Of a DNA stretch of 64,000 nt, positions 9,468 to 39,600 are shown piece by piece. Location: assembly GCA_031362565.1 (NCBI GenBank), contig JANLSU010000088.1:1-64000 (forward strand), read 5' to 3'. Below the pieces are notes generated by a model. It was not told where the DNA came from, ran no database searches, and was given only the letters and a program-made list of their open reading frames with translations. A program made the translations under genes and the position numbers. The stretch is from a bacterium (GTDB lineage: Bacteria > Krumholzibacteriota > Krumholzibacteriia > G020349025). The first letter of the stretch is position 1, and each line of letters starts with the position of its first letter.

Positions 9468-12400
9468 ATGCGTCGCTCCACGCACTACCGCCTTTGGGTT
9501 TGCCACCGGCCCGCGATTCTCGCCGCCGGTGTCGCAGTCGCAGCCGCGTTCCATGCGAGTTCCCCGGCGTGGGCCGTCGCGCCGGTGGTTCGCCACGAGA
9601 TTACCAGCACAACATCCGCAATCGATGCCGCTGGAATGACCGGTGATCGGGGTCCGAGCAAGGCGCTCGACGACACGACTTGGATCGCCGATTGGTCCTT
9701 CGACGGGCCGGGCGGCACTTGCGTCAGCGCCGGTTGGACCGCGTACGACGCGTACGTCCAGAACGACGGATCCAACTTCTGGGTGATCGACAATCGCTTC
9801 AGCGGCACCTGCGGCAGCAGCAAGGCATCGGTGCTCAGCAAGCACGACCTCTGCTGGCCGCATGACGGGTACGGCAACGACTGGGACTACTCCATCGTGC
9901 TCAAGTACCAAGCTCCAGCCACCCTCTCCTTCGATATCCTGTACGACACCGAGCCGGGCTATGACTTCGTCACGGTCGAGACCGATTCACTGGGGCTGTC
10001 GGAAGCGCGCCTCGACCTCTGCGCCCATCCGACCGCCAAGGCCGCCGACCTGCGAAAGGAATTGCTCTCGCTCGACGGACTGAGCGGTGGATGTGTGCAC
10101 ATCGGACCCGTGACGCTCACCAACTTCGGACCTGGCACGCACGAGGCGTACATCCGGTTCGCGTCGGACACCGGTTATTCGGACCAAGACGACGGATATC
10201 CGACTTCCCTCCACGCCGCCGCGGCGATCGATAACATCGTCATGACCGGCCCTCTATCGTATTCGGAGGGCTTCGAGGCGGCGCTGAATCCCAACGTGCA
10301 GTTGCTCAATACGGGCAACGCGCAACATTTCTGTGCGGCGCCGTGGTGGCGGCTCTTTCCGCACGTGACCGACAACGACAAATGCACCGAAAACCTGACG
10401 TGTGCTTGGCTCGACTCGGATCCGCTCCGGATCGCGTTCGACCCGTCGATGACATTCGGGCCGGCGCAGGCCGTCATCCACAACTGGCTCGACGACGTGC
10501 TCGTGAGTCCATGGGTGAGCCTCGCGTCGACACCAGGGGCGGCAGGCACGGTGCTCTCCTTCCGGCGCTTCGGCGGCAACCTCGTTTCCCGCGGTGACAT
10601 CGTCCAGGGTTGGCGTGTGCGGACCCGGCTTCGCCGCGCCAACACCGACACCCCGGCGCCGGGAGATTCGATCGACTGTACGACGGCCTGGGGACACGCG
10701 CACCAGTTCAGCTCCCTGGACAGCTTCCAATGGCTGACCTTCGTCAACGACATGACGCCTTTTTTCGCGCCGTCGGGCCGCGAGATCCAAGTGAGTTTCC
10801 GGAATACCGATTTCCAATTGCTGGTCGGTTTGCCGGCGCCTTCGACCCTCAATCCGGGACCCGGTCCTTACATCGATCGCGTGCGGATCGGGCGGCGCGT
10901 GCTCACGGGTCCGGTCTTCAACGAGGGCATCGACGCCCGCACCCAGGCGCAGGATGCGTTTCCGACGGTGCGGAACTCGATGGCACCTGGCGAGCATTTC
11001 TCGCCCGACGGTTCCAACCGGTTCGGGACCTGTGCCTTCTCGGCCGGCCAAGACGTGGGGATCAATGGGTGCTGCTCGAGTCTCGTCACCGGCGACTCGA
11101 TCACGCTCGATCAAGTCGTCGACGCACGGAATGCGGGTGGCGTTGCGTCGGTGCGCTTCTATGGCGCGATCACCAGCGGCCCGCACTATGGCAAGGCGCC
11201 GGTTCCGTACACGGTAGGCGCCAATGGGTTCTTCCAAGTGAACGCCGATAGTGCGCGCGGCCTGGCCGGTACGGTGATCGCCAACCGCTGGTTCGTGGAC
11301 GTGGACGACACCTACTTTCGAGGCAGCGATGTGCTCGAGTACTTCTGGGCGGCGACCGACAACAGCGGCGGCTTCGCGTCCGATCCGCTGGGCTTGACGG
11401 CATTGCCCGCCTCGGTGGCAGCCGCCGAGACGGTGACCGGGGGATTGCTCGAGGTCAATTTCTTGCCGTCGATCAATTGGAGCGCCTCCTACCTGGCACG
11501 AATCGCCGCCGATGCGCACGGGGATCTCGACCCGACGCCGGCAGAACTGGCTCAATCGACGCAGAAGAATTGCATCTTGTACGTCCAGAAGGCGAACAGC
11601 CGGCGTCGTAGTGGCATCATCAACCGTACGTCGTTCATGTACACGCTGCATTTTCAACAGCTCTTCGACGTCTATGACGTGCAGGGGTACGGCAACACGA
11701 ACAATGCGCTCGGCAGCCGCGCCAACGTCGGGCAATGCAGCGGGTATGCGCTCATCATTCAAGATGACGGGCGGTCGACACTGACACCCAATGTGCCGGA
11801 GGGTCTCAACACCGACAGCGAGAAGATCAACCAGGCGCAGTGGTACCGCGACTACTTGGCGCAGGGCGTGAGCGGACTCGTTGGCTCTGCGACGCTGTGG
11901 ATCATGGGCGAGAACACGGCATTCGAGAAAGCGTCGAATCCGTTGTTCGCGGTCGACATGGGACTGGCGGGGGTCGTCACAGATCAAGCCCTCAGCGTCA
12001 ATCCCGACGTGCAGGGCAGTGCTTCGTTCACGTGGGCAAACGGTGGGGTGACGAATTTCGTCGGCGACAAATTCAGCCTCAATGGCGGCTGCCCGGCAGT
12101 TCGTGCCTACGACGGTGCAACGGCCGCCGGAACCGCCGTCGTGACCCACAATTATCGCTCGGGCCCGACGACGGGCACCGGCGCCATCGTCATGAACAAG
12201 AACTCGGTGCTCAAGTGGAATACGGTGTGGATGGGATTCGGTTGGGCGGACATCCGGGACGCCTTCAACAGTCCCCCCGGACAGCCGGCGGGGGCGCTGA
12301 TGACCAAGGTTCTCAGCCAGTCGCTGCCATTCCAATGCATTGTTCAAATGCATACGGACAGCGGCGAAGACCCCGAGACCGCCGTGCCACGGGTGACGGC

Positions 12401-12671
12401 ACTGCATCAGAACGTCCCGAACCCATTCAACCCGGCGACCCGGATCACCTTCGACCTGGCGCAGGCGGGGCCTGTGAAGCTGCAGGTATTCGATGTCGCC
12501 GGGCATTTGGTGCGGACACTCGTCGACGGCACGCTCGCGGCCGGGCGCGGCCATCAAGCTGCGTGGAACGGCCTCGACGAGTCCGGCCATCGGGCGTCGA
12601 GCGGCGTGTACTTCTACCGGCTCACGGCCGGTGAATTCACCGCGACGCGTAAGCTGGCGTTGCTCAAATAG
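9468..12671 (+). CDS. large secreted protein with C-terminal FlgD-Ig/T9SS-like domain, family paralog P1 (inverted, most divergent copy)
   Basis: GGGAGG RBS; signal peptide; DTTWIADWSFD, YDTEPGYDF jelly-roll-like motif; C-terminal NVPNPFNP...SGVYFYRL...RKLALLK; collinear with P2-P9. Confidence 0.85.
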   Translation: MRRSTHYRLWVCHRPAILAAGVAVAAAFHASSPAWAVAPVVRHEITSTTSAIDAAGMTGDRGPSKALDDTTWIADWSFDGPGGTCVSAGWTAYDAYVQNDGSNFWVIDNRFSGTCGSSKASVLSKHDLCWPHDGYGNDWDYSIVLKYQAPATLSFDILYDTEPGYDFVTVETDSLGLSEARLDLCAHPTAKAADLRKELLSLDGLSGGCVHIGPVTLTNFGPGTHEAYIRFASDTGYSDQDDGYPTSLHAAAAIDNIVMTGPLSYSEGFEAALNPNVQLLNTGNAQHFCAAPWWRLFPHVTDNDKCTENLTCAWLDSDPLRIAFDPSMTFGPAQAVIHNWLDDVLVSPWVSLASTPGAAGTVLSFRRFGGNLVSRGDIVQGWRVRTRLRRANTDTPAPGDSIDCTTAWGHAHQFSSLDSFQWLTFVNDMTPFFAPSGREIQVSFRNTDFQLLVGLPAPSTLNPGPGPYIDRVRIGRRVLTGPVFNEGIDARTQAQDAFPTVRNSMAPGEHFSPDGSNRFGTCAFSAGQDVGINGCCSSLVTGDSITLDQVVDARNAGGVASVRFYGAITSGPHYGKAPVPYTVGANGFFQVNADSARGLAGTVIANRWFVDVDDTYFRGSDVLEYFWAATDNSGGFASDPLGLTALPASVAAAETVTGGLLEVNFLPSINWSASYLARIAADAHGDLDPTPAELAQSTQKNCILYVQKANSRRRSGIINRTSFMYTLHFQQLFDVYDVQGYGNTNNALGSRANVGQCSGYALIIQDDGRSTLTPNVPEGLNTDSEKINQAQWYRDYLAQGVSGLVGSATLWIMGENTAFEKASNPLFAVDMGLAGVVTDQALSVNPDVQGSASFTWANGGVTNFVGDKFSLNGGCPAVRAYDGATAAGTAVVTHNYRSGPTTGTGAIVMNKNSVLKWNTVWMGFGWADIRDAFNSPPGQPAGALMTKVLSQSLPFQCIVQMHTDSGEDPETAVPRVTALHQNVPNPFNPATRITFDLAQAGPVKLQVFDVAGHLVRTLVDGTLAAGRGHQAAWNGLDESGHRASSGVYFYRLTAGEFTATRKLALLK

Positions 12672-13660: not shown

Positions 13661-16600
13661 CTACTTGAGCAGCACCATCTTGCGGGACGCACTGAACGCC
13701 GGCGCATCGAGCCGGTAGAAATAGATGCCGCTCGCGACCCGGGCGCCGGAGTCGTCGAGGCCATCCCATGAAACCTTGTAACGCCCGGCGGGGCGCGCTT
13801 CGTTGACAAGAGCGCGCACCTGGCGGCCGCCGACGTCGAAGACGCGGAGCGCGACAGCGCCACGGGCTGCGAGATCGAACCGGATCTCGGTCACCGGGTT
13901 GAATGGATTCGGTACGTTGGGATGCAGCGCAGTCACGGCCGGCAGCGCGCCGGTCGTTGGGTCGCCGCCGACACCCGTCGTGGGCGATTGCTGGCAGGCC
14001 GGCGGCACCACGCCATTCAAGATCTTGGTTGCGAGATCGAGTTCCGGCGTCCCCGGCGCTCCCGAGTCGCGGATGTCGAACCAGCCGAAGCCCATCCACA
14101 CGGTGTTCCAGTGCAGCGCCGTGTTCTTGTTCATGACAATCGCGCCAGGACCGGTCGCCGTACTCGACCGATACTTGTGTGTCACTACCGCCGTTCCCGA
14201 GGCACTTGCACCGTCATAGAACCGTGCGGACGGACAACCACCTTGCAGGGTAAAAACGTCGCCGGTGAAGTTCGTCACCCCGCCACTGGCCCAAGTGAAA
14301 GATGCGCTGCCCACGACCTCAGGGTTCACTGCCACCGCCTGGTCATTCACGATGCTCGTCAGGCCCATGTTGTTCGTGAACAGTGGGTTCGATTGTTTCT
14401 GGTAGACCGTATTCTCGCCCAAGAGCCACACCGTCGCAGTCCCCGCGAGTCCGCCAACGCCCTGCGCCAAGTAGTCGCGGTACCACCCCGCCTGGTCGAT
14501 CTTGTTGTCGTTCCAGATGAGACCATCCGGCACGTTCGGAACCAGACTGGACCGGCCGTCGTCCTGAATGATCAGTGCGTAACCGGCGCATTGCGCCACG
14601 TTCGCCCGGCCACCGAGTTGGTTGTTCGTGTTGCCGTAGCCTTGCACGTCGTACACGTCGTAGTGGCCCGCGTAGCCCAGCCGGTCCAGCGTATACATGA
14701 ACGCCGTGCGCTGGGTCGCCCCCGTGCGCCGCGCCGAATTCGATTTCTGGAAGTAGAGAAGGCAATTCGCCTGGCTCGAGTTCGCGACTTCGGCGGGCGT
14801 TGGATCGAGGTCGCCGTGCGCATCGGCTGCAATCCGTGCCCGGTAGACCGGATCCCAGTTGATGACCGGCAAGTAAGCCACTTCGCGCAGGCCATCGGTT
14901 GCGACCTCCGCTGCCCCGACCGAGGCCGGCAGTGCCACCAAACCGGTTGGGCTCGAGGTAAAACCGCCCGCGATATCAGTCGCGGCCCAGAAGTAGTCGA
15001 GCTGGTCACCACCTCGGAAGTATGTGTCGTCCAAATCCACGCACCAGCGGTTCGCAACCACCGCACCCAAGGAATTCCGGGCGCTGTCCGCCGCGACGGC
15101 AAAGAACCCGTTTCCGCCCACCGTGTATGGCGCGGGGGCCTTGCCCGCATGCGGGCCAGCGACAATCGCGCCATAGAACTGCACGGAAGCCACGCCACCG
15201 GCACCGCGCGCGTCGACGACGCTGTTCAAGTAGATCGAGTCGCCGGTGATCAATCGTGAGGTGGTATTTCCAATCCCCAGGTCGGCGGCATCGGAAAAGG
15301 CGCACGTGCCGAAGCGGTTGGAACCATCCGGCGAGAAGTGCTGACCTGGCGTGATCGAGTTTTGAACGGTTGAAAATGCATCCTGCGCCTGGGTACGTGC
15401 GTCGCTCCCGACATCGATTGCCGGGCCCGTGAGGATGCGCCGGCCGATCCGAACGCGGTCGTTGTACGGCCCCGGCCCGGGGTTGAAAGAGCCGGGTCCC
15501 AGAGATCCAACCAAGTACTGGAAATCCACATTCCGGAAGCTGACTTGGAGCTCCTTCGCTGTCGGGGTGAAATTCGCGGTCATGTCGAACGCCAACGTCA
15601 CCCACGTGAAGGACCCCAGGGAATTGAACTGGTTTGCGTGACCCCACGTGCTGATACCGTCGATCGAGTCGCCCGGCGCGGGGGTGTCCGAATTGTCGAC
15701 CTTTGCCTTCGTACGCACCCGCCAGCCTTGGGTGATGTCGCCCTGCCCGAAAGGGTTGCCGCCAAAACGCCGGAACGTGAGGATCGCGCCGGTCGCACCG
15801 TGGACCGACCCGAGACTCACCCATGGACTGACGAAAATGTCGTCGAGCCAGTTGTGGACGACTGCACGGCCAGGAGCAAAGGCCATATCTGGAAGGAACG
15901 CCGGCCGGAGCGGATCTGTCCCCAGCCACGCACACGTCGCGTCCTCGGTACATTTGTCGTTGTCGGTGATATGGGAGAACAGGCGCACCCAGGGCGCGGC
16001 ACAGAAGTGCTGTGTGTTGCCTGTATTGAGCAACTGCGCGTTAAGATTGAGCGCCCCCTCGAAGTTCTCTGAATACGCGAGCGGACCCGTCACGACGATG
16101 TTGTCGATCACCAGGGCGGCGTGGAGTGCAGTCGGGTAACCGCCATCCTCGTCCGAGTCTGCGGTGTTCGACGCGAACCGGATGTACACTTCGTGCGTCC
16201 CGGGTCCGAAGTTGGTGAGGGCCACGGGTCCGATGTGCTGACATCCACCGCTCGTTCCGGTGAGTTCGAGCAGTGTCGTTCGCATTCTTGCCGTAGACGA
16301 GATCGGGCTCGAAGGCGGATCGAGGCACAGATCGAGGCGTGTCTCGGACAGCCCCAGTGAGTCGGTTTCGACGGTGACGAAGTCGGCGCCCGCCTCGCTG
16401 TCATAGAGCGCGTCAAACGCGAGCGTGGCTGGAGCTTGATACTTCAGCACGATTGAATAGTCCCAGTAGTTGCCGTAGCCGTCACGCGCCCAACAAAGGT
16501 CGTGCTTGCTGAGCACCGCCGCCTTGCTGATGCCGCAGGTCCCGGCGAAGCGGTTGTCGACCGTCCAGTAGTTGGATCCGTCGTTCAGAATGTGGTTGTC

Positions 16601-16879
16601 GTACTTGACCCAGCCCGCGTCGGTGCAACCCCCGCCCGGAGCGTCGAACGTCCAGTCCGCGATCCAGACGGTGTCTCCCAGCGCCTTGTCCGCCGTCGAC
16701 GGAGCCTGCGGACTGCCTATCACATCCACTTCGCCAATCTCGGGCGAGTATTCGGCATGCTCGGCGGGAAGCGCGGCGAGAGCAACGCGGGCCGGCGCCA
16801 GGAGACACGCGAGCAGTGCGCCAGCACTCGACCCGCGCCACGCTAGGGTTCTGGCTCTGTGACTTGTCGGAGTGTGCAC
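13661..16879 (-). CDS. secreted FlgD-Ig C-terminal domain protein, paralog P2
   Basis: 1072-aa ORF; GAAGGAG RBS; signal peptide; DTVWIADWTFD; ends NPFNP...RKMVLLK. Confidence 0.9.
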   Translation of the reverse strand: MHTPTSHRARTLAWRGSSAGALLACLLAPARVALAALPAEHAEYSPEIGEVDVIGSPQAPSTADKALGDTVWIADWTFDAPGGGCTDAGWVKYDNHILNDGSNYWTVDNRFAGTCGISKAAVLSKHDLCWARDGYGNYWDYSIVLKYQAPATLAFDALYDSEAGADFVTVETDSLGLSETRLDLCLDPPSSPISSTARMRTTLLELTGTSGGCQHIGPVALTNFGPGTHEVYIRFASNTADSDEDGGYPTALHAALVIDNIVVTGPLAYSENFEGALNLNAQLLNTGNTQHFCAAPWVRLFSHITDNDKCTEDATCAWLGTDPLRPAFLPDMAFAPGRAVVHNWLDDIFVSPWVSLGSVHGATGAILTFRRFGGNPFGQGDITQGWRVRTKAKVDNSDTPAPGDSIDGISTWGHANQFNSLGSFTWVTLAFDMTANFTPTAKELQVSFRNVDFQYLVGSLGPGSFNPGPGPYNDRVRIGRRILTGPAIDVGSDARTQAQDAFSTVQNSITPGQHFSPDGSNRFGTCAFSDAADLGIGNTTSRLITGDSIYLNSVVDARGAGGVASVQFYGAIVAGPHAGKAPAPYTVGGNGFFAVAADSARNSLGAVVANRWCVDLDDTYFRGGDQLDYFWAATDIAGGFTSSPTGLVALPASVGAAEVATDGLREVAYLPVINWDPVYRARIAADAHGDLDPTPAEVANSSQANCLLYFQKSNSARRTGATQRTAFMYTLDRLGYAGHYDVYDVQGYGNTNNQLGGRANVAQCAGYALIIQDDGRSSLVPNVPDGLIWNDNKIDQAGWYRDYLAQGVGGLAGTATVWLLGENTVYQKQSNPLFTNNMGLTSIVNDQAVAVNPEVVGSASFTWASGGVTNFTGDVFTLQGGCPSARFYDGASASGTAVVTHKYRSSTATGPGAIVMNKNTALHWNTVWMGFGWFDIRDSGAPGTPELDLATKILNGVVPPACQQSPTTGVGGDPTTGALPAVTALHPNVPNPFNPVTEIRFDLAARGAVALRVFDVGGRQVRALVNEARPAGRYKVSWDGLDDSGARVASGIYFYRLDAPAFSASRKMVLLK

Positions 16880-29700: not shown

Positions 29701-30000
29701 ATCGTTCATCACGTGGTTGTCGTATTTGACCCAGCCGGCGTCGGTGCACGCCCCACCGGCGGTATCGAACGTCCAGTCCGCGATCCAAACGGTATCGCCG
29801 AGCGCTTTACTCGCGGTCGGAGGTGCAGCCAGATTCCCGATCGCGTCCACTTCGCCGATCTCTGGCGAGTGCTCCGCGTGTTCAGCGGGAAGTGCGGCGA
29901 GAGCGACGCGGGCCGGCAGGAGGAGGCACGTAAGCAGCCCGATCGCGCGCCGTCCCAACGAAGCCCCGATTTTGTCGCGGCGGTTTGTCTGGGTGAGCAT
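26773..30000 (-). CDS. secreted FlgD-Ig C-terminal domain protein, paralog P6
   Basis: Intact ORF; GAAGGAGG RBS before ATG 30000; same scaffold. Confidence 0.9.
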   Translation of the reverse strand: MLTQTNRRDKIGASLGRRAIGLLTCLLLPARVALAALPAEHAEHSPEIGEVDAIGNLAAPPTASKALGDTVWIADWTFDTAGGACTDAGWVKYDNHVMNDGSNYWVVDNRFAATCGSGKAAILTKHDLCWTRDGYGNNWDYSIVLQYQAPATLSFDVLYDSEAGYDFITIETDSLGLSEARRNLCSDPPGSPVANEFAAKLRRVLLELSGPSGGCQHVGPVPLNNFGPGTHEVYIRFCSDTGFSDEDGNWPSTTHAGLAVDNVVLTGPLACSENFEGALNPNVQLLNTGNAQPFCAAPWVRLFSHITDNDKCNEDVTCAWLGSDPLRPAFYSDMAFGPGGAVIHNWLDDMFVSPWVSLASTPGASGTILSFRRFAGNNFGAADLVQGWRVRAKVKRDNTDTPAPGDSIDCISTWGHSNQFNSLGSFSWNTNLFDMTTNFPPAARELQVSFRNADFQYIAFALPPLGLLDPGPGPYNDRIRIGRRILTGPVIDVGIDTRTQAEDAFATVQNSIVPGQHFSPDGANRFGTCAFSEGTDLGTGNGTSHLITGDSIYLQSVIDRRGAGGIASVKFYGAIIAGPHVGKAPAPYAVSGNGFFGVSADSARNSIGNVIANRWFVDLDDTYFRGGDVLDYFWATTDNAGGFTSSPAGMAALPASVGAAEIATDGLREATFLPTIQWDPAYLARIAADAHGDLDPTPSEIAGSSQTNCLLYYQKSNSARRTGPTQRTAFMYTLDRLGYAGHYDVFDVQGYGNTNNQLGSRATPAQCAGYALIIQDDGRSILVPNVPDGIVWDDNKINQAQWYRDYLAQGGSGLAGTATAWILGENTAFQKATNPLFTTDMGLTGIVTDQAVAVNPDVIGTGSFTWAGGGVTNFTGDTFTLQGGCPAFRAYDGASASGTAVVTHRYRSSATTGLGAIILNKNTALHWNTVWMGFGWFDIRDTGAPGTPELDLAAKILNGVLPAACQQSPLTGVGEDPSAAGLPAVTTLHPNVPNPFNPVTEIRFDLAARGPVTLRVFDVGGRQVRALVNETRPAGRYRVSWNGLDDAGARVASGIYFYRLETPVFSAARKMVLLK

Positions 30001-30061
30001 CGAGAACCCTCCTTCATGATCCAACGTCGCTGGCGCGGCTCACATCGTCGTGAGCTCGCAA

Positions 30062-33000
30062 TTACTTGAGCAGCACCATCTTCCGCGAGGCGCTGAACAC
30101 CGGCGTCTCGAGCCGGTAGAATATAGATCCCGCTCGCGACACGGGCACCCGCGTCGTCGAGCCCGTTCCAAGACACCCTGTAGCGCCCGGCCGGGCGCGT
30201 TTCATCGACGAGGGCGCGCACCTGACGCCCACCGACGTCGAAGACGCGGAGCGCCACTGCGCCCCGGGCCGCAAGATCAAAGCGGATCTCGGTCACCGGA
30301 TTGAATGGATTCGGCACGTTGAGATGCAGCGCCGTCACGGCCGGCAGCCCGCCGGTCGTGGGGTCGCCACCCACACCCGTCGTGGGCGATTGCTGACATG
30401 CCACCGGCACGACACCGTTCAGGATCTTGGTCGCAAGAGCGAGCTCCGGAGTGCCCGGCGCTCCAGTGTCGCGAATGTCGAACCAGCCGAAGCCCATCCA
30501 CACCGTGTTCCAGTGCAGGGCCGTGTTCTTATTCATCACAATCGCACCAGGACCGGTCGTCGTGCTCGAACGGTAGTTGTGGGTTGCGACGGCAGCCCCC
30601 GAAGCGCTGGCACCGTCGTAGACCCGCACGGACGGGCAACCGCCCTGAAGCGTGAACGTGTCGCCGCCAAAACTCGTCACACCGCCACCGGCCCATGTGA
30701 ATGATGCGTTGCCCACGACATTGGGGTTCACCGCCACCAATTGGTCATTCACGATGCCTGCAAGCCCCATATCGACCGTGAAGAGCGGATTCGATGCTTT
30801 CAGGAATGCCGTATTCTCGCCCAAGATCCACAGCGTTGCCGTGCCGGCGAGGCCGCTCACACCCTGTGCCAGGTAGTCGCGGTACCATTGCGCCTGGTTG
30901 ATTTTCTCATTATCAAGGTTGACACCGTCCGGCACGTTGGGTCCCAGTGCCGACCGCCCGTCGTCCTGAATGACGAGGCCGTAGGCACTGCACTGCCCCA
31001 CGTTGGCGCGTCCGCCCAGTTGGTTGTTCGTATTGCCGTAGCCCTGCACGTCGTACACGTCGTAGTGCCCCGCATAGCCCAGCCGGTCGAGCGTGTACAT
31101 GAATGCCGTGCGCTGCGTTGGACCGGTACGCCGGGCGGAGTTCGACTTCTGGTAGTACAGAATGCAATTCGATTGGCTCGAACTCGTAAGTTCCTTGGGA
31201 GTCGGATCGAGGTCGCCGTGGGCATCGGCCGCGATCCGCGCCAAGTAGCTTGGATCCCAGTTGATGGTTGGCAGAAACGTGACCTCGCGGAGGCCCTCGG
31301 TCGCGATCTCGGCTGCGGCAACCGATGCCGGCAGCGCGGTCATGCCCGCTGGGCTCGACGCGAACCCACCCGCGTTGTCGGTCGCCGCCCAGAAGTATTC
31401 GAGCTGGTCGCCACCACGGAAGTAGGTGTCGTCCAGGTCTACGAACCAGCGGTTCGCCACCACGACACCCAAGGAATTCCGGGCGCTGTCCGCCGGCACC
31501 GCGAAGAACCCGTTCCCGCCGACGGTGTAGGGTGCAGGTGCCTTGCCGGTATGCGGACCCGCGACGATCGCACCATAGAACTTCACGGTCGCCACGCCGC
31601 CGGCGCCTCGTGCATCGACCACGCTGTTCAAGTAGATCGAGTCGCCGGTCACCAAGCGCGGTGAGACGCCCTGATTCGCGAGGTCGGCGGCCTCGGAGAA
31701 CGCACATGTCCCAAAGCGGTTGGCCGCGTCGGGCGAAAAATGCTGACCCGGCGCGCTCGCATTCTGGACGGTCGAAAACGCATCCTGCGCCTGCGTGCGG
31801 GTGTCGATCCCGACATCGATCGCAGGTCCCGTGAGAATGCGGCGGCCGATCCGAATGCGGTCGTTGTACGGACCGGGACCGGTGTTCAGCGTCGCTGGCG
31901 GAAGAGCACCGGAAAACGTCGGGCGTTGAAAATCAAGATTCCTGAAACTGACTTGGATTTCTTGTGCGGCCGGGGTGAAGTTCGTTGTCATGTTGAACAG
32001 GGCTGTCAGCCATGTGAAGTTGCCCAGCGAGTTGAACTGGTTGGCATGACCCCACGTTCCGACGCAGTCGACGGAGTCGCCCGGCGCTGGCGTGTCTGTA
32101 TTGTCGACCTTGGTCTTGGCACGAACTCGCCAGCCCTGAACAATCGCACCGCTGCCAAAGTTGTTGCCTGCGAAACGCCGGAACGAAAGAATCGTCGCCG
32201 CAGCGCCTGGGGTCGACGCCAAGGTCACCCATGGGCTGACCAACATGTCGTCGAGCCAGTTGTGAATGACGGCCTGCCCCGGACCAAACGCCATGTCTGG
32301 GAAAAACGCGTGGCGCAGCGGGTCGGTCCCCAACCAGGCGCACGTGTTATTTTCGCTGCACTTGTCGTTGTCCGTGATGTGTGGAAGCAGCCGCCACCAC
32401 GGCGCGGCGCAAAGCGGCACGGCACTGGCCGTGTTCGCCAACGTCACGTTTGAACTCAGCACGCCCTCGAAGTCTTCCGAATACGGCGTTCCACCCGTCA
32501 CAACAATGTTGTCGACCACCAGACCGGCGCTGTGCACGGTCAGCCAGTTGCCGTCCTCATCCGAGTAACCCGTATCGGCAGTAAATCGAATGTAGGCTTC
32601 GTGAATCCCGGTACCGAAGTTCGGCAGCACGATTGGACCGATGTGTGAACCCGGATCTAGACCGCTCACACCGACCAGGATTTCCGTACGCAGTGCGGCC
32701 GGTGTGGCTGTCGGGTGGGCGCAGATATTGGTCAGCACTTCCGAAAGCCCCAGCGAATCCGCTTCGACCGAAACGTAGTCGTAGCCCGCTTCGCTGTCGC
32801 TCACCTTGTCGAACGAAAGAGTCGCGCCGGCACCGGAGTACTTCAGGATGATCGAGTAATCCCAATTGTTTCCGTACCCGTCGTGCGGCCAGCAGAGGTT
32901 GTGGCGTGACAAGATCGCCGCGTGCCAACTGATACCGCCCACGCCACTCAACCGGTTGTCGATCGACCAGTAGTTTGATCCGTCGTTCAGAATGTAGTTG

Positions 33001-33281
33001 TCGGACTTGACCCACCCAGCGTCAGTGCACGCCCCGCCGGCGGTATCGAACGTCCAGTCCGCGATCCAAACGGTATCGCCGAGCACCTTGGCGGCGGTGG
33101 GAGGCGCCTCGGGATCGCCAATCGCATCCACTTCGCTGACCTCGGGCGTTTGTTCGAGTGGTTCTGCGGAGCGCACCGCGAGAGCGGCGCGGGCCAGCAA
33201 GGGCAGGCTCGCAAACAGGATTGCGGCAGCGAACTGCGACCATGTTGCGACGGCGGCGCCGCGGCACTTCGGTGGACTCAA
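30062..33281 (-). pseudogene. paralog P7, +1 frameshift in the last codons of the C-terminal domain (~30122)
   Basis: Reads ATC TAT A TTC TAC instead of ATC TAT TTC TAC; conserved FYRLETPVFSASRKMVLLK lies in another frame ending at 30062; span 3220 = 3n+1; probable TTG start 33281 after AGGAGG. Confidence 0.78.
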
Positions 33282-33339
33282 GAGGCCTCCTACAACGAAC
33301 GTCATCGCCGCGCCTGATGCGCCAGGGCCAGACCTGCGT

Positions 33340-36300
33340 CTATTTCAGCAGGACCATCTTCCGCGAGGCGCTAAACACCGGTGTTTCGAGCCGGTAGAAA
33401 TAGATGCCGCTCGCGACCCGGGCGCCGGCGTCATCAAGGCCGTTCCACGACACTCTGTAGCGCCCAGCCGGGCGCGTTTCGTTGACGAGTGAACGCACTT
33501 GCCGTCCACCGACGTCGTAGACGCGAAGCGCCACTGCGCCCCGAACTGCGAGATCGAACCGGATCTCGGTCACCGGATTGAACGGATTCGGGACGTTGGG
33601 ATGCAGGGCCGTCACGGCCGGCAACCCTTCGGTTGCTGGGTCGCCACCCACACCCGTCGTCGGCGATTGCTGGCACGCGACGGGCACGACACCGTTCAGG
33701 ATCATCGTCGCGAGATCGATTTCCGGCGTACCCGGCGCTCCCGTGTCGCGAATGTCGAACCAGCCGAAGCCCATCCACACCGTGTTCCAGTGCAGCGTCG
33801 TGTTCTTGTTCATGATGATGGCGCCGGGACCCGTCGTCGTACTCGAGCGATAGTTGTGGGTTACGACCGCGGTCCCCGAAGCACTCGCCCCATCGTAGGC
33901 GCGCACGGCCGGACAGCCGCCTTGCAGTGTGAAGGTATCACCCGTGAAGTTCGTCACGCCGCCACCGGCCCACGTGAAGGATGCGTTGCCGACGACATCC
34001 GGATTCACCGCCACCGCTTGGTCCGTGACGATGCCCGACAAGCCCATGTCGACCGTGAAGAGCGGGTTCGTTGCCTTCTGGAACGCCGTGTTCTCGCCCA
34101 GAATCCACGCTGTCGCGGTGCCTGCGCCTCCAGCCCCGCCCTGCGCCAAGTAGTCGCGGTACCACTTCGCCTGATTGATCTTGTTGTCGTCCCAGACGAT
34201 GCCATCCGGAACATTCGGAACCAAGGTCGACCGGCCGTCGTCCTGAATGACCAGGGCGTAACCGTTGCACTGCGTCGCGTTCGCACGGCTGCCGAGCTGA
34301 TTGTTGGTGTTGCCGTAGCCCTGCACGTCGAACACATCGTAGTGATCGGCGTAGCCCAACCGGTCCAGCGTGTGCATGAACGATGTGCGCTGCGGAAGCC
34401 CCGTCCGCCGGGCGGAGTTCGATTTTTGGTAGTACAGAATACAATTCGTCTGGCTCGAGTTGGCAATCTCACCCGGGGTCGGATCGAGGTCACCGTACGG
34501 ATCGGCGGCAATCCGCGCCACGTAGGCCGGATCCCATTGAATCTTCGGCAAGAACGTCGCTTCGCGCAGACCCGCGGTGGCAAGTTCCGCTGCGGCGACG
34601 GACGCGGGCAGCGCCGACATTCCGGCCGGGCTCGAGGTGAACCCACCCGCATTGTCGGTCGCGACCCAAAAGTAGTCGAGCTGGTCGCCGCCGCGGAAAT
34701 ACGTGTCGTCCATGTCTACGAACCAGCGATTTGAGACGACGTTGCCAAGGGAATTCCGAGCGCTATCCGCCGAAACGGCGAAGAATCCGTTGCCGCCGAC
34801 GGTGTACGGTGCCGGTGCCTTGCCCGCGTGCGGCCCTGCGACGATCGCACCGTAGAACTTGACCGACGCGACTCCGCCCGCGCCACGCGCGTCGACGACA
34901 TTCTGCAAGTAAATCGAATCGCCGGTGACCAGGCGTGATGTGGTGTTCCCGATTCCCAGGTCGGTCCCCTCGGAGAAGGCACAGGTGCCAAATCGATTCG
35001 CTCCGTCCGGCCAGAAGTGTTGTCCGGGCATCGAGTTCTGTACGGTTGGAAATGCATCCTGGGCCTGGGTCCGCGTATCGATCCCGACATCGATGGACGG
35101 ACCCGTGAACACCAAGCGGCCGATGCGAACCCGGTCGAGGTAAGGACCTGGGCCCGGATTCAGGGTCGCCGGCGGAAGGGCGTTCTGAAGTGTCGGAAGC
35201 TGAAAATCGGCGGTCCGGAAGCTGAGCTGAAGTTCACTCGCCGTCGACGGGAAATTCACCGTCATGTTGAACAGATTCGTCGTCCACGAGAAGCTGCCCA
35301 GCGAATTGAACTGATTGGCATGTCCCCACGTTCCAACGCAATCGACCGAGTCACCCGGAGCCACTGTGTCGGTATTGTCGCGGCGCGTCTTCGCCCGCAC
35401 TCGCCAGCCTTGAACGATGTCGCCATTGGCGAAATTATTGCCCGCGAACCGGCGGAACGATAGGACCGTCTGTGTCGCACTCGGAGTTGCCGCCAAGCTC
35501 ACCCACGGGCCGACGAGAATATCGTCCAGCCAGTTGTGAATGACGGCCCCGCCGGGACCAAACGCCATGCTCGGGAAAAACGCCGGGCGCAGCGGATCGG
35601 TTCCCAGCCACGCACAGGTGTTGTCTTCGAGGCACTTGTCGTTGTCGGTGATGTGCGAGAAGAGCCGGACCCACGGGGCGCTGCAGAAGGGCTGGTTGCC
35701 GGCGGTATTCACCAGAGCCACGTTCGCATTCAGTACGCCCTCGAAGTTCTCCGCGTAGGAGAGTCCGCCGGTCACGACGATGTTGTCGGCGACCAGGCCG
35801 GCGTGGTTCACCGTCGAATAGTTTCCGTCTTCGTCCGAGACCCCAGTGTCCGACACGAAGCGAATGTAGACTTCGTGCGTTCCAGCACCAAAGTTCGTCA
35901 GGGCGAGGGGGCCGAGGTGTGAACCTGCGTCCACACCGCTCATGCCGGCCAAGAGGACCTTGCGCAGCTTCGCCGGAGTCGCCAGAGGGTTGGCGCAGAT
36001 GTTCGCCCGGGCTTCCGAAAGGCCCAACGAATCCGTCTCGATCGAAACAAAGTCGTAGCCCGGTTCGCTGTCGCTCAACTTGTCGAACGACAGCGTCGCC
36101 GCGGCACCGGAGTACTTCAGGATGATCGAGTAGTCCCAGTTGTTCCCGTAGCCATCCCGCGCCCAGCACACGTTGTGCCGCGTCAGGATCGCGGCATTCC
36201 CGCCAATGCCACCGACACCGCTCAACCGGTTGTCGACCACCCAGTAGTTGGAGCCGTCGAAGAGCATGCGGTTGTCGTACTTGACCCACCCGGCGTCGGT

Positions 36301-36531
36301 ACACGCTCCACCGGCCGTGTCGAAGCTCCAGTCGGCGATCCAAACCGTATCGGCTAGCACCTTGCCGGCGGTGGGAGCTGCGGCGGGATTCCCGATCGCG
36401 TCCAAGTCCCCCACCTCGGGGGCGTACTCGATCGGCTCGGCGGGGTGTGCCGCGAGCGCGGCCCGTGTCGGCGCCAGAAGGCATCCGATCAATGCAATCG
36501 CGAGAAAACGCCAGCACATTGGTGGGCGCAT
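33340..36531 (-). CDS. secreted FlgD-Ig C-terminal domain protein, paralog P8
   Basis: GGAGGAGG RBS before ATG 36531 (MRPPMCWRF...); same scaffold. Confidence 0.9.
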   Translation of the reverse strand: MRPPMCWRFLAIALIGCLLAPTRAALAAHPAEPIEYAPEVGDLDAIGNPAAAPTAGKVLADTVWIADWSFDTAGGACTDAGWVKYDNRMLFDGSNYWVVDNRLSGVGGIGGNAAILTRHNVCWARDGYGNNWDYSIILKYSGAAATLSFDKLSDSEPGYDFVSIETDSLGLSEARANICANPLATPAKLRKVLLAGMSGVDAGSHLGPLALTNFGAGTHEVYIRFVSDTGVSDEDGNYSTVNHAGLVADNIVVTGGLSYAENFEGVLNANVALVNTAGNQPFCSAPWVRLFSHITDNDKCLEDNTCAWLGTDPLRPAFFPSMAFGPGGAVIHNWLDDILVGPWVSLAATPSATQTVLSFRRFAGNNFANGDIVQGWRVRAKTRRDNTDTVAPGDSVDCVGTWGHANQFNSLGSFSWTTNLFNMTVNFPSTASELQLSFRTADFQLPTLQNALPPATLNPGPGPYLDRVRIGRLVFTGPSIDVGIDTRTQAQDAFPTVQNSMPGQHFWPDGANRFGTCAFSEGTDLGIGNTTSRLVTGDSIYLQNVVDARGAGGVASVKFYGAIVAGPHAGKAPAPYTVGGNGFFAVSADSARNSLGNVVSNRWFVDMDDTYFRGGDQLDYFWVATDNAGGFTSSPAGMSALPASVAAAELATAGLREATFLPKIQWDPAYVARIAADPYGDLDPTPGEIANSSQTNCILYYQKSNSARRTGLPQRTSFMHTLDRLGYADHYDVFDVQGYGNTNNQLGSRANATQCNGYALVIQDDGRSTLVPNVPDGIVWDDNKINQAKWYRDYLAQGGAGGAGTATAWILGENTAFQKATNPLFTVDMGLSGIVTDQAVAVNPDVVGNASFTWAGGGVTNFTGDTFTLQGGCPAVRAYDGASASGTAVVTHNYRSSTTTGPGAIIMNKNTTLHWNTVWMGFGWFDIRDTGAPGTPEIDLATMILNGVVPVACQQSPTTGVGGDPATEGLPAVTALHPNVPNPFNPVTEIRFDLAVRGAVALRVYDVGGRQVRSLVNETRPAGRYRVSWNGLDDAGARVASGIYFYRLETPVFSASRKMVLLK

Positions 36532-36601: not shown

Positions 36602-39600
36602 CTATTTGAGCAGCACCATCTTGCGCGAGGCGCTGAACACCGGCGTCTCGAGCCGGTAGAAATAGATGCCACTCGCGACCCGGGCGCCGGCGTCATCAAG
36701 GCCGTTCCAAGACACTCTGTAGCGCCCAGCCGGGCGCGTTTCGTTGACGAGTGAACGCACTTGGCGCCCACCGACATCGAAGACACGGAGCGACACTGCG
36801 CCCCGCGCTGAAAGATCGAACCGGATCTCCGTCACCGGATTGAACGGATTCGGCACGTTGGGGTGCAGTGCGGTCACGGCCGGCAGCCCCTCGGTTGCTG
36901 GGTCGCCGCCCACACCTGTTGTCGGCGATTGCTGGCAGCCCACCGGCACCACACCGTTCAGAATCTTGGTCGCGAGGTCGAGTTCCGGCGTCCCGGGCGC
37001 GCCCGTATCGCGGATGTCGAACCAGCCGAAGCCCATCCATACGGTGTTCCAGTGCAGTGGCGTGTTCTTGTTCATGACAATCGCGCCGGGACCTGTGTTC
37101 GCACCCGATCGATAGTTGTGCGTCACAACCGCGGTTCCGGAAGCACTGGCGCCGTCGTAGGCCCGCACCAACGGACAGCCGCCTTGCAGGGAGAAGGTGT
37201 CGCCCGTGAAGTTCGTCACTCCGCCGCCGGCCCAGGTGAACGACGCGTTGCCGACGACATCCGGGCTCACCGCCACCAATTGGTCGTTCACGACACTCGA
37301 CAGCGCAAAGTCGGTCGCAAAAAGCGGGTTCGAGGCCTTCTCGAGCGCGGTATTCTCGCCGAGGATCCACAGCGTCGCGGTGCCGGCAAAACCTGCCGCG
37401 CCCTGCGCCAAGTAGTCGCGGTACCACTGCGCCTGATTGATCTTCGAAGTGTCAAAATCGTTTCCGTTCGGAATGTTCGGACTCAGGTTCGAACGGCCGT
37501 CGTCCTGAATGACGAGTGCATAGCCGCTGCATTGCCCCACGTTGGCGCGGCCACCGAGTTGGTTGTTCGTGTTACCGTAACCTTGGACATCGTATACGTC
37601 GTAGTGGCCGGCGTAACCCAGCCGGTCCAGCGTGTACATGAACGACGTGCGCTGCGGGAGGCCCGTGCGCCGGGCAGAATTCGATTTTTGGTAGTACAGA
37701 ATGCAATACGTCTGGCTCGAATTGGCAAGCTCGCTGGGGGTCGGATCGAGGTCGCCGTGCGCGTCGGCCGCAATCCGCGCCACATAGGCAGGATCCCAAC
37801 TGATGGCCGGCAAGAACGTCACCTCGCGCAGACCTTCCGTGGCGATCTCGGCCGCGGCGACCGATGCCGGTAAGGCCGTCAGTCCCGCCGGGCTCGAGGT
37901 CAATCCACCCGCGTTGTCGGTCGCAGTCCAGAAGTAGTCGAGCTGGTCACCGCCGCGGAAATACGTATCGTCCATGTCTACGAACCAGCGGTTCGCCACG
38001 ACGAATCCGTTGTTGTTCCGGGCGCTGTCCGGCGAGACTGCGAAGAACCCATTGCCGCCGACGGTATATGGTGCCGGTGCCTTACCGGTGTGTGGTCCTG
38101 CGACGATCGCACCATAGAACCTGACGGAGGTAATACCGCCCGCGCCACGCGCATCGATGACGCTGTTCAGATAGATCGAATCGCCCGTGATCAGACGAGT
38201 TGAAATTGCGTGATTCCCCAGATCTAAGGCGTTCGAAAAGGCACAGGTGCCAAAGCGGTTGACGCCGTCGGGCGAAAAGTGTTGGCCCGGTGTGATTGTA
38301 TTCTGTAGGGTTGGAAACGCGTCCTGCGCCTGGGTACGCGTATCGATCCCAACGTCAATGGATGGACCCGAGAGAGTCTTGCGCCCGATCCGAATGCGAT
38401 CGTTGTACGGACCTGGCCCGGGGTTCAGCGTCGCCGGCGGCGGGCTACCAGCGGTGTATTGGAAATCCGTGGTCCGGAAGCTAACCTGGATTTCACCGGC
38501 CGTCGGAGGAAAATTCACCGTCATGTCGAATAGATTCGTGTTCCACGAGAACGGGCCCAGCGAATTGAACTGGTTGGCGTGTCCCCACGTTCCGACGCAG
38601 TCGATCGAATCCCCGGGTGCGGCCGTGTCGGTGTTGTCGCGGCGCGACTTCGCGCGGACCCGCCAGCCTTGCACGATGTCACCGTTGGCAAAATTGTTCC
38701 CCGGAAACCGCCGGAACGACAGGATCGTACCGGTCGCGCTCGGGGTCGACGCCAAACTGACCCACGGACTGACGAAGTTGTCGTCGAGCCAATTGTGAAT
38801 GACGGCCTGGCCGGGACCAAACGCCATGTCTGGGAAAAACGCCGGGCGTAACGGGTCGGTTCCCAGCCACGCACACGTGGGGTCTTCGGTGCACCTCTCG
38901 TTGTCGGTGATGTGCGAGAACAGCCGGGCCCAGGGCGCGCTGCAGAAGGGCTGGTTGCCCGCAGTATTCGCCAAGGTCACGTTCGGATTGATCACGCCCT
39001 CGAAATCTTCCGAGTACGCCAACCCGCCGGTCACGACAATGTTGTCGACAACCAGACCTGCTTGGGTGGCGGTCGGTTGGTTGCCGTCTTCGTCCGAGGA
39101 CTGCGAGTCCGATGTGAAGCGGATGTAGACCTCGTGCGTCCCGGGGCCGAAGTTCGTCAGGAGGAGCGGGCCGATCAGTGAACCCGGATTTACACCGCTA
39201 ATGCCGGCCAGGATCACTTTGCGCAGCTTTGCAGGAGTCGCTTTGGGGTCGGCGCAGATGTTGGCCCGGGCTTCCGAGAGTCCCAACGAATCCGTCTCGA
39301 CCGTGGTGACGTCGTTGCCATCTTGGCCGTCGCTCAGCATGTCGAACCGGAGCGTCGCCGCGGCGCCCGAGTACTTCAGGACAACCGAGTAGTCCCAATT
39401 GTTCCCGTACCCGTCGCGCGCCCAGCACAGGTTGTGACGGGACAAGATCGCCGCTTTGCCCGAGGCGCCAATGCCGTTGAACCGGTTGTCGATCACCCAG
39501 TAATTGGAGCCGTCGTTCAAGATGCGGCCGTCATACTTGACCCACCCGGCGTCGGTGCAACCGCCGCCCACCGTGTCGAACGTCCAGTCGGCGATCCATG

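What the first reader, a model, noticed from the sequence alone, without database searches (positions are those of the whole stretch)
9990..39290. Conserved framework with discrete hypervariable loops (antibody/variable-adhesin-like pattern)
Seen: indels and strong divergence concentrate at a few sites flanked by near-invariant anchors. Loop 1, after SLGLSE...C, reads AHPTAKAADLR / LDPPSSPISSTARMR / GTGDPRFDGPPEFR / LQPYYANPAAWR / NHPERNYDDLDFAGQFR / SDPPGSPVANEFAAKLR / AHPTATPAALR / ANPLATPAKLR / ADPKATPAKLR in P1-P9. Loop 2, before GPGPY, reads LLVGLPAPSTL / YLVGSLGPGSF / LISGVLPPLIL / VPSLFVQGHAPSPL / PLSGGPPPATL / YIAFALPPLGLL / RPTFSGALPPATL / LPTLQNALPPATL / YTAGSPPPATL. Loop 3 precedes (L)xTGDSI, e.g. 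INGCCSS, IGNTTSR, NQGVSPR, NHAISTR. Loop 4 precedes KI(N/D)QA, e.g. LIWNDN, VVSNDN, VNLDNE, NDFDTS. Inference: these loops may form one diversified binding surface, for different ligands or for escape from phage or predators.
Basis: partly seen in the sequence, partly recalled or inferred. Interest (0 to 1): 0.8.

Follow-up and report, generated by a model that had tools for sequence, protein, structure and literature searches.

The report
Tandem family of secreted multi-domain proteins
Nine neighbouring copies of one large secreted protein of unknown function differ mainly in a few surface loops and in their first domain, as old gene duplicates do, with no sign of an antibody-like hypervariation system.

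Summary
The window carries nine paralogues (P1 on +, P2-P9 head-to-tail on -) of a ~1,070-aa protein. The antibody-like reading is only weakly supported.

- The copies are old: pairwise dS is 0.7-1.6.
- The loops evolve about three times faster than the framework but below neutrality: ML omega 0.35 against 0.12, and omega=1 is rejected at p=2e-11. Only the 6-codon loop 4 is near 1.
- The four loops sit in four different predicted domains.
- No DGR-like template and no loop variants in the Logan contigs were found.

The protein is an unannotated type IX secretion cargo: signal peptide, two MAM/CBM-like jelly rolls, an Ig-like domain, a glutamine-amidotransferase-like domain and a sorting domain. 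The family is so far named only from Krumholzibacteria-labelled MAGs.

New here: the genes are mosaics. Domain 1 exists in two old types shared with paralogues outside the P2-P9 array, while the 3' two-thirds are array-specific. Function is most likely polymer binding; this is inferred.

The parts
9468..12671 (+). P1, paralogue on the + strand. The likely start is the Met at 9468 inside ORF 9309-12671. Domain-1 type A.
   Evidence: ORF and translation. 64% identical to P4. Sister to metagenome protein P0013. Loops: L1 10023-10043, L2 10812-10850, L3 11061-11084, L4 11805-11822.
13661..16879 (-). P2, array copy, domain-1 type A.
   Evidence: Loops: L1 16292-16324, L2 15485-15523, L3 15251-15274, L4 14504-14521.
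16947..20196 (-). P3, array copy, domain-1 type A. It is interrupted by one extra base at about 17664-17667. The likely start is near 20148.
   Evidence: Two tblastn pieces in different frames. Reading of the break. Terminal-branch omega 0.20, like the intact copies. Loops: L1 19573-19602, L2 18766-18804, L3 18532-18555, L4 17788-17805.
20215..23445 (-). P4, array copy, domain-1 type B; the copy that was modelled. Domains in window coordinates: D1 22636-23229, D2 21979-22635, D3 21478-21978, D4 20530-21477, sorting domain 20218-20478.
   Evidence: AlphaFold2 model with pLDDT 87.7 and pTM 0.81. Fold matches. Loops: L1 22849-22872, L2 22033-22080, L3 21805-21822, L4 21058-21075.
23491..26715 (-). 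P5, array copy, domain-1 type A, with the longest loop 1.
   Evidence: Loops: L1 26122-26160, L2 25315-25353, L3 25081-25104, L4 24334-24351.
26773..30024 (-). P6, array copy, domain-1 type A.
   Evidence: Loops: L1 29407-29445, L2 28597-28638, L3 28363-28386, L4 27616-27633.
30065..33305 (-). P7, array copy, domain-1 type B. One extra base at about 30122-30125 shifts the last ~20 codons of the sorting domain.
   Evidence: Terminal-branch omega 0.18. Loops: L1 32700-32720, L2 31887-31931, L3 31653-31676, L4 30906-30923.
33340..36531 (-). P8, array copy, domain-1 type B. The likely start is the Met at 36531 inside ORF 33340-36786.
   Evidence: Loops: L1 35974-35994, L2 35161-35205, L3 34930-34953, L4 34183-34200.
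36602..39811 (-). P9, array copy, domain-1 type B. The likely start is the Met at 39811 inside ORF 36602-40042.
   Evidence: Loops: L1 39233-39253, L2 38426-38464, L3 38192-38215, L4 37445-37462.

Best explanation
This is a lineage-specific tandem expansion of an uncharacterised family of large type IX secretion (T9SS) cargo proteins.

Each gene encodes, in order:
- a signal peptide;
- two MAM/CBM-like jelly-roll domains (D1, D2);
- an Ig-like domain (D3);
- a domain with the class I glutamine-amidotransferase-like fold (D4);
- a C-terminal T9SS sorting domain.

The copies are old duplicates under purifying selection. The 'hypervariable loops' are the least constrained coil segments, one in each of the four domains. 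They evolve about three times faster than the framework but still below the neutral rate. Most of them also vary among other members of the family.

On top of this the genes are mosaics. D1 exists in two old types. Type A is carried by P1, P2, P3, P5 and P6; it has an extra cysteine pair and, in P2/P3/P5/P6, a longer loop 1. Type B is carried by P4, P7, P8 and P9 and is shared with the unlinked paralogue on contig C97. The 3' two-thirds of P2-P9 form one array-specific group, which indicates past recombination or gene conversion.

Inferred, not shown: the proteins are exported by the T9SS and bind, and perhaps process, extracellular polymers. The N-terminal jelly rolls would give target recognition, and the array would give a panel of specificities.
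For: Copies and family
- Nine copies lie in the window and four more full-length ones elsewhere in the genome.
- Only the C-terminal FlgD_ig / TIGR04183 sorting domain is recognised by Pfam and NCBIfam. The four body pieces gave 0 families at E<=10.
- T9SS parts are present in the genome: SprA, three PorU and PorV, all over cut-off.

Structure
- Model pLDDT 87.7, pTM 0.81.
- D4 matches GH42 domain B (Z 15.7), 2gk3 (15.1), 3rht (14.9) and the IFT52 GIFT domain (13.5).
- D1/D2 match MAM, CBM, ephrin-receptor, Kgp adhesin and InhA2 jelly rolls at Z 10.5-12.1.
- The D3 core matches the Ig-like domain of the P. gingivalis T9SS cargo PPAD at Z 8.7.

Age and selection
- Pairwise dS is 0.70-1.61 and dN/dS 0.11-0.24 in 36 of 36 pairs.
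- ML omega is 0.118 for the framework and 0.35 for the four loops, with a likelihood-ratio test against omega=1 at p=2e-11.
- Parsimony counting gives omega 0.54-0.67 for loops 1-3, each significantly below 1.
- Array entropy correlates with entropy in 87 family members from other genomes (rho 0.55) and with two other paralogue groups (rho 0.34 and 0.32).

Mosaic
- The D1 tree groups P2/P3/P5/P6 with P1 and P0013 (support 97-99). The AU test rejects a P2-P9 clade for D1 (p=0.001) and rejects the type-A clade for D3-D4 (p=5e-37).
- Nucleotide identity windows show the switch at about codon column 240-270.
- pS falls from about 0.62 at the 5' end to 0.41 at the 3' end.

No active diversifier
- The reverse transcriptases lie on other contigs and have no template-like match to the array.
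- Only 2 single-base differences were seen in 19.7 kb of contigs of the run that holds the locus.
Against: - An average omega below 1 does not exclude episodic or site-specific positive selection. dS is near saturation, the loops are hard to align, and there are only 11-12 sequences with DNA.
- Loop 4 is not distinguishable from neutral: ML omega 0.85, p=0.74. In P9 and P7 it shows dense bursts of change relative to their sisters.
- Each loop abuts a family-invariant motif. Domain 1 is kept in two distinct types. The same loops vary in other paralogue groups. All of this is also what specificity loops would show.
- Whether the loops meet on one face was not measurable here.
- The run data were contigs, which drop rare variants.
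- The AU groups were named after seeing the trees.
- The function rests on fold resemblance only.
Confidence: 0.6

Rival explanations
1. The loops, together with the other variable patches, form one diversified recognition surface. Diversifying selection among paralogues shapes it, for different ligands or for evasion of phage or predators that use the protein as a receptor.
For: - The variable segments are coil regions next to invariant motifs.
- Loops 1, 3 and 4 vary recurrently in independent paralogue groups.
- Loop 4 omega is about 0.85-0.99, with bursts in P9 and P7.
- Two D1 types are maintained inside an otherwise homogenised array.
- A cysteine pair links two variable D1 patches in type A copies only, which suggests that these patches are neighbours.
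Against: - Omega is significantly below 1 for loops 1-3 and for the pooled loops.
- No single site is significant.
- The four loops are in four domains.
- The copies are old and show no recent exchange; the longest identical tract is 82 nt.
- No diversifying element was found.
Confidence: 0.2
2. The family is an enzyme. The strongly conserved D3-D4 part would hold a new active site, formed by polar residues at the C-terminal ends of the D4 strands and the invariant Asp/Ser/His/Asp/Tyr cluster of D3. D1-D2 would be substrate-targeting modules. The variable loops would tune substrate range rather than adhesion.
For: - The lowest pN is in D3-D4.
- Family-invariant D551, S552, H581, D622, Y624, D629, D639, Q707, R762 and Y771.
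- The fold class of D4 hosts several hydrolase families, and D4-like domains occur in glycoside hydrolases.
- Peptidases are frequent but not constant neighbours.
Against: - There is no sequence match to any enzyme family.
- The turn after the fourth D4 strand reads G-E-N, where amidotransferase-fold hydrolases carry their Cys/Ser nucleophile. This is my reading plus recalled knowledge; no superposition was made.
- The best D4 matches are non-catalytic domains.
Confidence: 0.15
3. An active hypervariation or phase-variation system (a diversity-generating retroelement, or cassette switching from silent copies), or an assembly artefact of a repeated gene.
For: - There are many similar copies in a row.
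- Two copies are frameshifted and might be taken for silent cassettes.
Against: - All nine copies have their own signal peptide and sorting domain.
- The reverse transcriptases are on contigs C73, C75 and C76, with only chance 15-28 nt matches to the array.
- No Pfam family of a recombinase was found among the 28 long flanking ORFs scanned.
- The frameshifted copies have the same terminal omega as intact ones.
- Copies differ by 16-34% in protein sequence, so they are not collapsed repeats. 78 of the 110 pieces laid from run X1 were 99% or more alike.
Confidence: 0.03

Closest known systems
T9SS type A C-terminal-domain cargo proteins (e.g. P. gingivalis gingipains and PPAD, Flavobacterium adhesins and glycanases)
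   Same: - An N-terminal signal peptide (seen by eye).
- A C-terminal ~85-aa sorting domain that matches TIGR04183 and FlgD_ig.
- An Ig-like domain most like that of PPAD (Z 8.7).
- T9SS machinery present in the genome.
   Different: - The ~900-aa body matches no Pfam or NCBIfam family.
- The host is an uncultured FCB-group lineage (Krumholzibacteria by the names), not Bacteroidota.
- Secretion itself is not shown.
MAM / InhA-like MAM / Kgp-HagA 'cleaved adhesin' / CBM jelly-roll binding domains
   Same: - D1 and D2 have this fold: Z 10.5-12.1 to meprin, RPTP-mu and neuropilin MAM domains, InhA2, the Kgp K1 adhesin and several CBMs.
- The nearest ESM Atlas cluster carries InhA-like_MAM (score 0.91).
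   Different: There is no HMM match to these families even at E<=10. The ligand is unknown.
Non-catalytic class I glutamine-amidotransferase-like domains: GH42 domain B, ThuA-like proteins, GIFT domain of IFT52/GldG, OST48/Wbp1
   Same: The D4 fold: Z 15.7 (5xb7), 15.1 (2gk3), 14.9 (3rht), 13.5 (5fms).
   Different: - No sequence relation was detected.
- D4 has its own set of conserved polar residues.
- It is not attached to a TIM-barrel glycosidase.
Hypervariable surface-protein systems (DGR targets such as Mtd/TvpA; pilE/pilS or vlsE cassette conversion)
   Same: - Many related copies.
- Variation concentrated in exposed segments on a conserved scaffold.
- Traces of old exchange between copies.
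   Different: - There is no reverse transcriptase or template repeat at the locus.
- There are no silent partial cassettes.
- The copies have diverged to dS of about 1 under purifying selection.
- No variants were seen in the Logan contigs of the four runs, and contigs drop rare variants.

Membership tests
T9SS type A CTD cargo | C-terminal sorting domain that matches TIGR04183 / PF18962 (or the overlapping FlgD_ig model) | tested here: met
   - TIGR04183 (cut-off 23 bits): P1 29.0, P4 23.2, P2 20.7 (below cut-off).
- FlgD_ig (cut-off 27 bits): P1 34.1, P2 34.9, P9 34.3, P4 26.1 (just below).
- Source.
T9SS type A CTD cargo | Secretion machinery present in the same genome (SprA translocon, PorU sortase, PorV shuttle) | tested here: met
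   - SprA on C38: 448.9 bits summed.
- Three PorU at 483-539 bits.
- PorV at 58 bits, next to PorU on C85.
- Source.
T9SS type A CTD cargo | N-terminal Sec signal peptide, and actual export with removal of the sorting domain | not testable with these tools
   A hydrophobic stretch followed by an Ala-x-Ala-like site is visible in all nine N-termini. No signal-peptide predictor was run and no proteomic data were available.
DGR variable protein | Reverse transcriptase plus a template repeat nearly identical to the variable region | tested here: not met
   RVT_1 hits occur only on contigs C75, C73 and C76. blastn of their neighbourhoods (up to 6 kb each side, less where the contig ends) against the array gave only 15-28 nt matches with E of 0.008 or more.
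MAM / InhA-like MAM domain (Pfam) | Match to the family HMM | tested here: not met
   0 Pfam families at E<=10 for the D1 and D2 pieces. The resemblance is of fold only and of language-model features.
Class I glutamine amidotransferase-type hydrolases | Cys (or Ser) nucleophile at the turn after the fourth strand, with His and Glu partners | tested here: inconclusive
   - The fold is shared (Z up to 15.7).
- The turn after strand 819-826 reads G-E-N in P4 and in the family consensus, so no Cys or Ser is seen there.
- The position was assigned from the secondary-structure string, not from a superposition.

The most novel reading that the evidence does not exclude
The array is a 'conserved chassis with alternative heads' repertoire. 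Gene conversion keeps the D3-D4-sorting-domain chassis of P2-P9 alike. Selection keeps two old D1 cassette types, and the loop variants next to invariant motifs, distinct. The cell would then display a panel of recognition heads for different extracellular targets, or to blunt phage or predator recognition. Independent tandem expansions of the same family in other lineages would then be repeated solutions to the same pressure.
Probability: 0.2. Interest if true: 0.6.

Novelty: new member of a known kind. Interest (0 to 1): 0.35.

Why it matters
The family takes up about 42 kb of a 5.4 Mb genome (13 full-length copies) and has no annotation. It occurs in all 7 genomes of the same GTDB family that were searched, this one included. 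So it is probably important for how these uncultured sediment bacteria deal with their surroundings.

Its domain combination, jelly rolls plus an amidotransferase-like domain on a T9SS tail, matched no Pfam or NCBIfam family, and two paper searches on its lineages and type IX secretion found nothing.

The mosaic pattern gives a concrete, testable hint that domain 1 is the specificity module. As a case of antibody-like hypervariation it does not hold up.

Tried and rejected
- Pfam at E<=10 on four body pieces: 0 families.
- Profile search of PDB sequences with the 97-sequence alignment: only FlgD and PorU C-terminal matches.
- hhalign of the family profile against the window's DMFA2_C protein: only the sorting domain aligns.
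- Foldseek on the whole model gave low-TM multi-domain matches. VIA-align was more informative.
- D3 folded alone gave a weak model (pLDDT 68.3, first 63 residues under 50), so only its Ig-like core could be searched.
- Model coordinates are not in /data, so loop-to-loop distances were not computed.
- A partitioned codon model ran but printed no omega values. I replaced it with separate fits.
- Run search: only Logan contigs were available, no raw reads and no RNA.
  - The listed contig pieces do not visibly bridge the two frameshift sites, so the frameshifts are neither confirmed nor refuted.
  - Runs X2-X4 hold only small shares.
- Neighbourhoods of 8 other family loci share no constant partner gene.
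- Earlier findings: nothing near the locus or by sequence.
- Papers: 0 hits for Krumholzibacteri + 'type IX secretion' and for Eisenbacteria + T9SS. In PMC11495043 I read three passages, which were not relevant to this family.


Full report
**What is there**

The window (about 63% G+C) carries nine ORFs of 912-1,198 codons that are paralogues of one another. P1 (9309-12671) is on the + strand. P2-P9 (13661-40042) lie head to tail on the - strand, 35-70 nt apart. tblastn with P4 finds exactly these nine loci plus one unrelated protein that shares only the C-terminal domain.

P3 and P7 each fall into two frames. In both cases one extra base, near 17664-17667 and near 30122-30125, interrupts an otherwise intact gene. 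Their terminal-branch omega values (0.20 and 0.18) equal those of the intact copies (0.19-0.26). The breaks are therefore recent or are sequence errors.

**Check of the observation**

The alignment of the nine mature regions has 1,015 columns, of which 461 are invariant. Loops 1, 2 and 3 are the three most variable 9-column windows, at 1.70, 1.50 and 1.37 bit against a mean of 0.55.

Variable columns are more clustered than in 2,000 shuffles:
- highest window p=0.0005;
- the lag-1 autocorrelation of 0.125 is reached by 0 of 2,000 shuffles;
- 35 windows at or above 1.3 bit against a shuffle mean of 0.8.

The anchors are real, and several of their residues are invariant in a 97-sequence family alignment. 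The caveat is that variability is graded rather than confined to four discrete sites.

**What the protein is**

Pfam and NCBIfam recognise only the last ~85 residues, as FlgD_ig and as the T9SS type A sorting domain TIGR04183. The four body pieces give no Pfam hit even at E<=10. A profile search of PDB sequences finds only the tail.

The genome (5.4 Mb, 133 contigs) encodes SprA, three PorU and PorV over their cut-offs. Among the 150 matches listed for P4 in this genome, over a hundred are other ORFs that share only its tail. The proteins are therefore best read as T9SS cargo.

An AlphaFold2 model of P4 built on 97 sequences is confident (pLDDT 87.7, pTM 0.81). It shows these domains:

| Domain | P4 residues | Fold and best matches |
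|---|---|---|
| D1, D2 | about 73-270 and 271-489 | jelly rolls like MAM, CBM, ephrin-receptor, Kgp-adhesin and InhA2 domains (Z 10.5-12.1) |
| D3 | 490-656 | core is an Ig-like sandwich, nearest the Ig-like domain of the T9SS cargo PPAD (Z 8.7) |
| D4 | about 707-972 | class I glutamine-amidotransferase-like fold: GH42 domain B Z 15.7, 2gk3 15.1, 3rht 14.9, IFT52 GIFT domain 13.5 |

The ESM Atlas lead, an InhA-like_MAM cluster at 0.91, agrees for the N-terminal part.

**Distribution of the family**

- The word-seeded search found 155 relatives with E<=0.001 among 8,000 scored candidates. Where named, they are 'hypothetical protein' or 'FlgD immunoglobulin-like domain containing protein' of Krumholzibacteria MAGs.
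- The exhaustive search counted 146 representatives at E<=1e-30.
I did not resolve the taxonomy.
- This genome has 13 full-length copies.
- All 7 genomes of its GTDB family, this one included, have matches. The 6 others have 2-12 matching segments each, and none is above 53% identical to the P4 body.

**Where the loops lie**

In P4 numbering:

| Loop | Residues | Domain |
|---|---|---|
| 1 | 191-203 | D1 |
| 2 | 458-471 | D2 |
| 3 | 539-547 | N-terminal part of D3 |
| 4 | 791-797 | D4 |

All four fall in DSSP coil segments. Loops 2 and 4 fall in or beside local dips of pLDDT: 67 for residues 461-470 and 78 for residues 781-790, just before loop 4.

Four loops in four domains do not by default make one surface. 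The session gives no coordinates, so I could not measure whether the compact model brings them together.

One indirect hint concerns domain 1 only. A cysteine in the patch at columns 42-50 and a cysteine in the patch at columns 139-147 occur together in 5 of the 97 sequences, singly in 3, and in neither patch in 89. This suggests a disulfide, and so proximity of two variable D1 patches that flank loop 1.

**Selection**

The copies are old. Pairwise dS is 0.70-1.61 and gene-wide dN/dS is 0.11-0.24 in all 36 pairs.

| Method | Framework | Loops |
|---|---|---|
| Pairwise counting | 0.15 | 0.31-0.55; no 12-codon window has pN/pS above 0.79 |
| Parsimony counting on the tree of 11 own-genome copies | overall omega 0.26 | loops 1-3 at 0.54-0.67, each significantly below 1 (p=0.0008-0.009); loop 4 at 0.73-0.99, not significant |
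| ML codon models, tree scaled from the framework | 0.118 | four loops together 0.35 |

- In the parsimony analysis no single site is significantly positive (best uncorrected p=0.06).
- In the ML analysis, omega=1 is rejected for the pooled loops with LRT 45.0, p=2e-11.
- Per loop, ML omega is 0.43 for loop 1 (p=0.005), 0.36 for loop 2 (p=0.0002), 0.26 for loop 3 (p=6e-5) and 0.85 for loop 4 (p=0.74).
- The three extra patches give 0.38 (p=1e-7).

The limits are saturation, uncertain alignment in indel-rich loops, few sequences, and averaging over sites and branches. Loop 4 remains a candidate. P9 and P7 differ from their sisters at 5 of 6 and 4 of 6 residues there. P3, P6, P8 and the unlinked C97 copy keep the same I-[V/I]-W-D-D-N.

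**Are these the family's usual variable places?**

Entropy within the array correlates with entropy among 87 family members from other genomes (rho 0.55). Loops 1, 3 and 4 are above the family mean (2.06-2.24 against 1.52 bit); loop 2 is not (1.58).

I also looked at two other paralogue groups, of five proteins each. By their listed contig lengths, one probably lies on a single contig and the other on two contigs. Both are monophyletic in the tree. In them:
- loop 1 ranks in the top 2.3% and 6.5% of windows;
- loop 3 in the top 5.4% and 4.0%;
- loop 4 in the top 13.7% and 4.1%;
- loop 2 only in the top 13.4% and 49%.

Recurrent variability at the same places is expected both for relaxed surface loops and for specificity loops, so it does not separate the two readings.

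**History of the array**

In the whole-gene tree P2-P9 are one clade (support 98). A metagenome protein (P0007) and the C97 paralogue are the next relatives, and P1 pairs with another metagenome protein (P0013). So the eight-gene array is a lineage-specific expansion. Similar expansions occurred elsewhere in the family.

The domains disagree, however.
- For D1, P2, P3, P5 and P6 group with P1 and P0013 (support 97-99), and a P2-P9 clade is rejected (AU p=0.001).
- For D3-D4 the array is one clade (support 99), and the D1 grouping is rejected (AU p=5e-37). The groups were named after seeing the trees.
- At the nucleotide level, in codon columns about 31-270, type A copies are as close to P1 (0.68-0.79) as to each other, and type B copies are as close to C97 (0.72-0.83). 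Beyond column about 270 all eight are equally alike, and from about column 600 they are 0.78-0.86 identical to each other against 0.56-0.77 to P1 or C97.
- pS falls from about 0.62 to 0.41 along the gene.

The simplest reading is past gene conversion or recombination that homogenised the 3' two-thirds, or swapped D1, while two old D1 types persisted. Exchange is not recent. The longest identical tract between any two copies is 82 nt, and only 4 of 45 pairs reach the permutation floor of p=0.0033.

**No active diversifier, no artefact**

- RVT_1 hits lie on three other contigs, and their surroundings have only chance matches to the array.
- The flanking genes scanned are peptidases (M14, S9), an HDOD protein, an RDD protein between P1 and P2, asparagine synthase and sugar-nucleotide enzymes. 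None matched a recombinase family.
- One public freshwater-sediment run holds 96% of the sampled words of P4. Its contigs, laid on 19.7 kb of the array, show 2 single-base differences and no indel. Three other runs hold small exact pieces.
- These are contigs, which drop rare variants, and the best run may be the source sample.
- Neighbourhoods of eight other family loci share no constant partner gene.

**How it most likely works**

- Shown: gene structure, the sorting domain, the presence of the T9SS, the predicted folds, purifying selection and the mosaic history.
- Inferred: the proteins are exported through the T9SS and either stay on the surface or are released. The N-terminal jelly rolls bind an extracellular polymer. 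The strongly conserved D3-D4 part, with its invariant Asp/Ser/His/Asp/Tyr cluster and the polar residues at the ends of the D4 strands, carries a conserved function, which could be binding or catalysis. The paralogues differ in specificity mainly through D1.

I put about 0.6 on this ordinary 'old paralogue family with relaxed or specificity-tuning loops' reading. I give 0.2 to adaptive diversification of one surface, 0.15 to a new enzyme with variable targeting modules, and very little to active hypervariation or artefact.

**Comparison and novelty**

It works like a T9SS cargo with binding modules, and it passes the membership tests I could run for that class. It fails the HMM test for MAM-type families and the test for DGR targets.

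The body is an unannotated family. Two paper searches, on Krumholzibacteria with 'type IX secretion' and on Eisenbacteria with T9SS, found nothing. I rate it a new member of a known kind, of moderate interest. The mosaic 'two D1 types on a homogenised chassis' pattern is the part most worth following up.

Noticed in passing
window 17664-17667 and 30122-30125: Each of P3 and P7 has one extra base that breaks the frame. In P7 only the last ~20 codons of the sorting domain are affected. Both copies have terminal-branch omega like the intact ones, so these are recent lesions or sequence errors.
   Followed up: partly
window 53814-57227 (+): A 1,137-aa protein with a DMFA2_C (N,N-dimethylformamidase-like) domain, a Big_7 domain and the same kind of T9SS sorting tail. 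It shares only the tail with the family.
   Followed up: partly
genome G000, many contigs: Over a hundred further ORFs in this 5.4 Mb genome match only the ~90-residue sorting tail of P4. The predicted T9SS secretome is therefore very large. There are also three PorU genes.
   Followed up: partly
window 2457-4850 (-) and 6255-8894 (+): An M14 carboxypeptidase and an S9 prolyl-oligopeptidase-type protein lie just upstream of P1. Other family loci sit near M16 and S46 peptidases or a POT peptide transporter, but no neighbour is constant.
   Followed up: partly
window 12739-13497 (+): An RDD-family membrane protein gene sits between the divergently placed P1 and the P2-P9 array.
   Followed up: no
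P1, P2, P3, P5, P6 (alignment columns 45 and about 147): A pair of cysteines (T-C-G and G-G-C) is present together in the type A domain-1 copies and absent together in type B. In the 97-sequence family alignment it occurs together in 5 sequences and singly in 3. A lineage-specific disulfide is likely.
   Followed up: partly
window 45616-48327 (+) and 60269-61642 (-): Two ORFs have weak to moderate matches to TLC ATP/ADP transporters, one of them fused to HEAT repeats.
   Followed up: no
G003:C54:85473-88154: In a related genome one family copy appears degraded: three adjacent pieces, one with 1 TGA and 2 TAA inside.
   Followed up: no
L024:6860-10999 (G000:C43): The C43 paralogue lies in an open frame of 1,379 codons, about 300 longer at the N-terminus than the others. 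This may be an upstream extension of the ORF rather than real protein.
   Followed up: no
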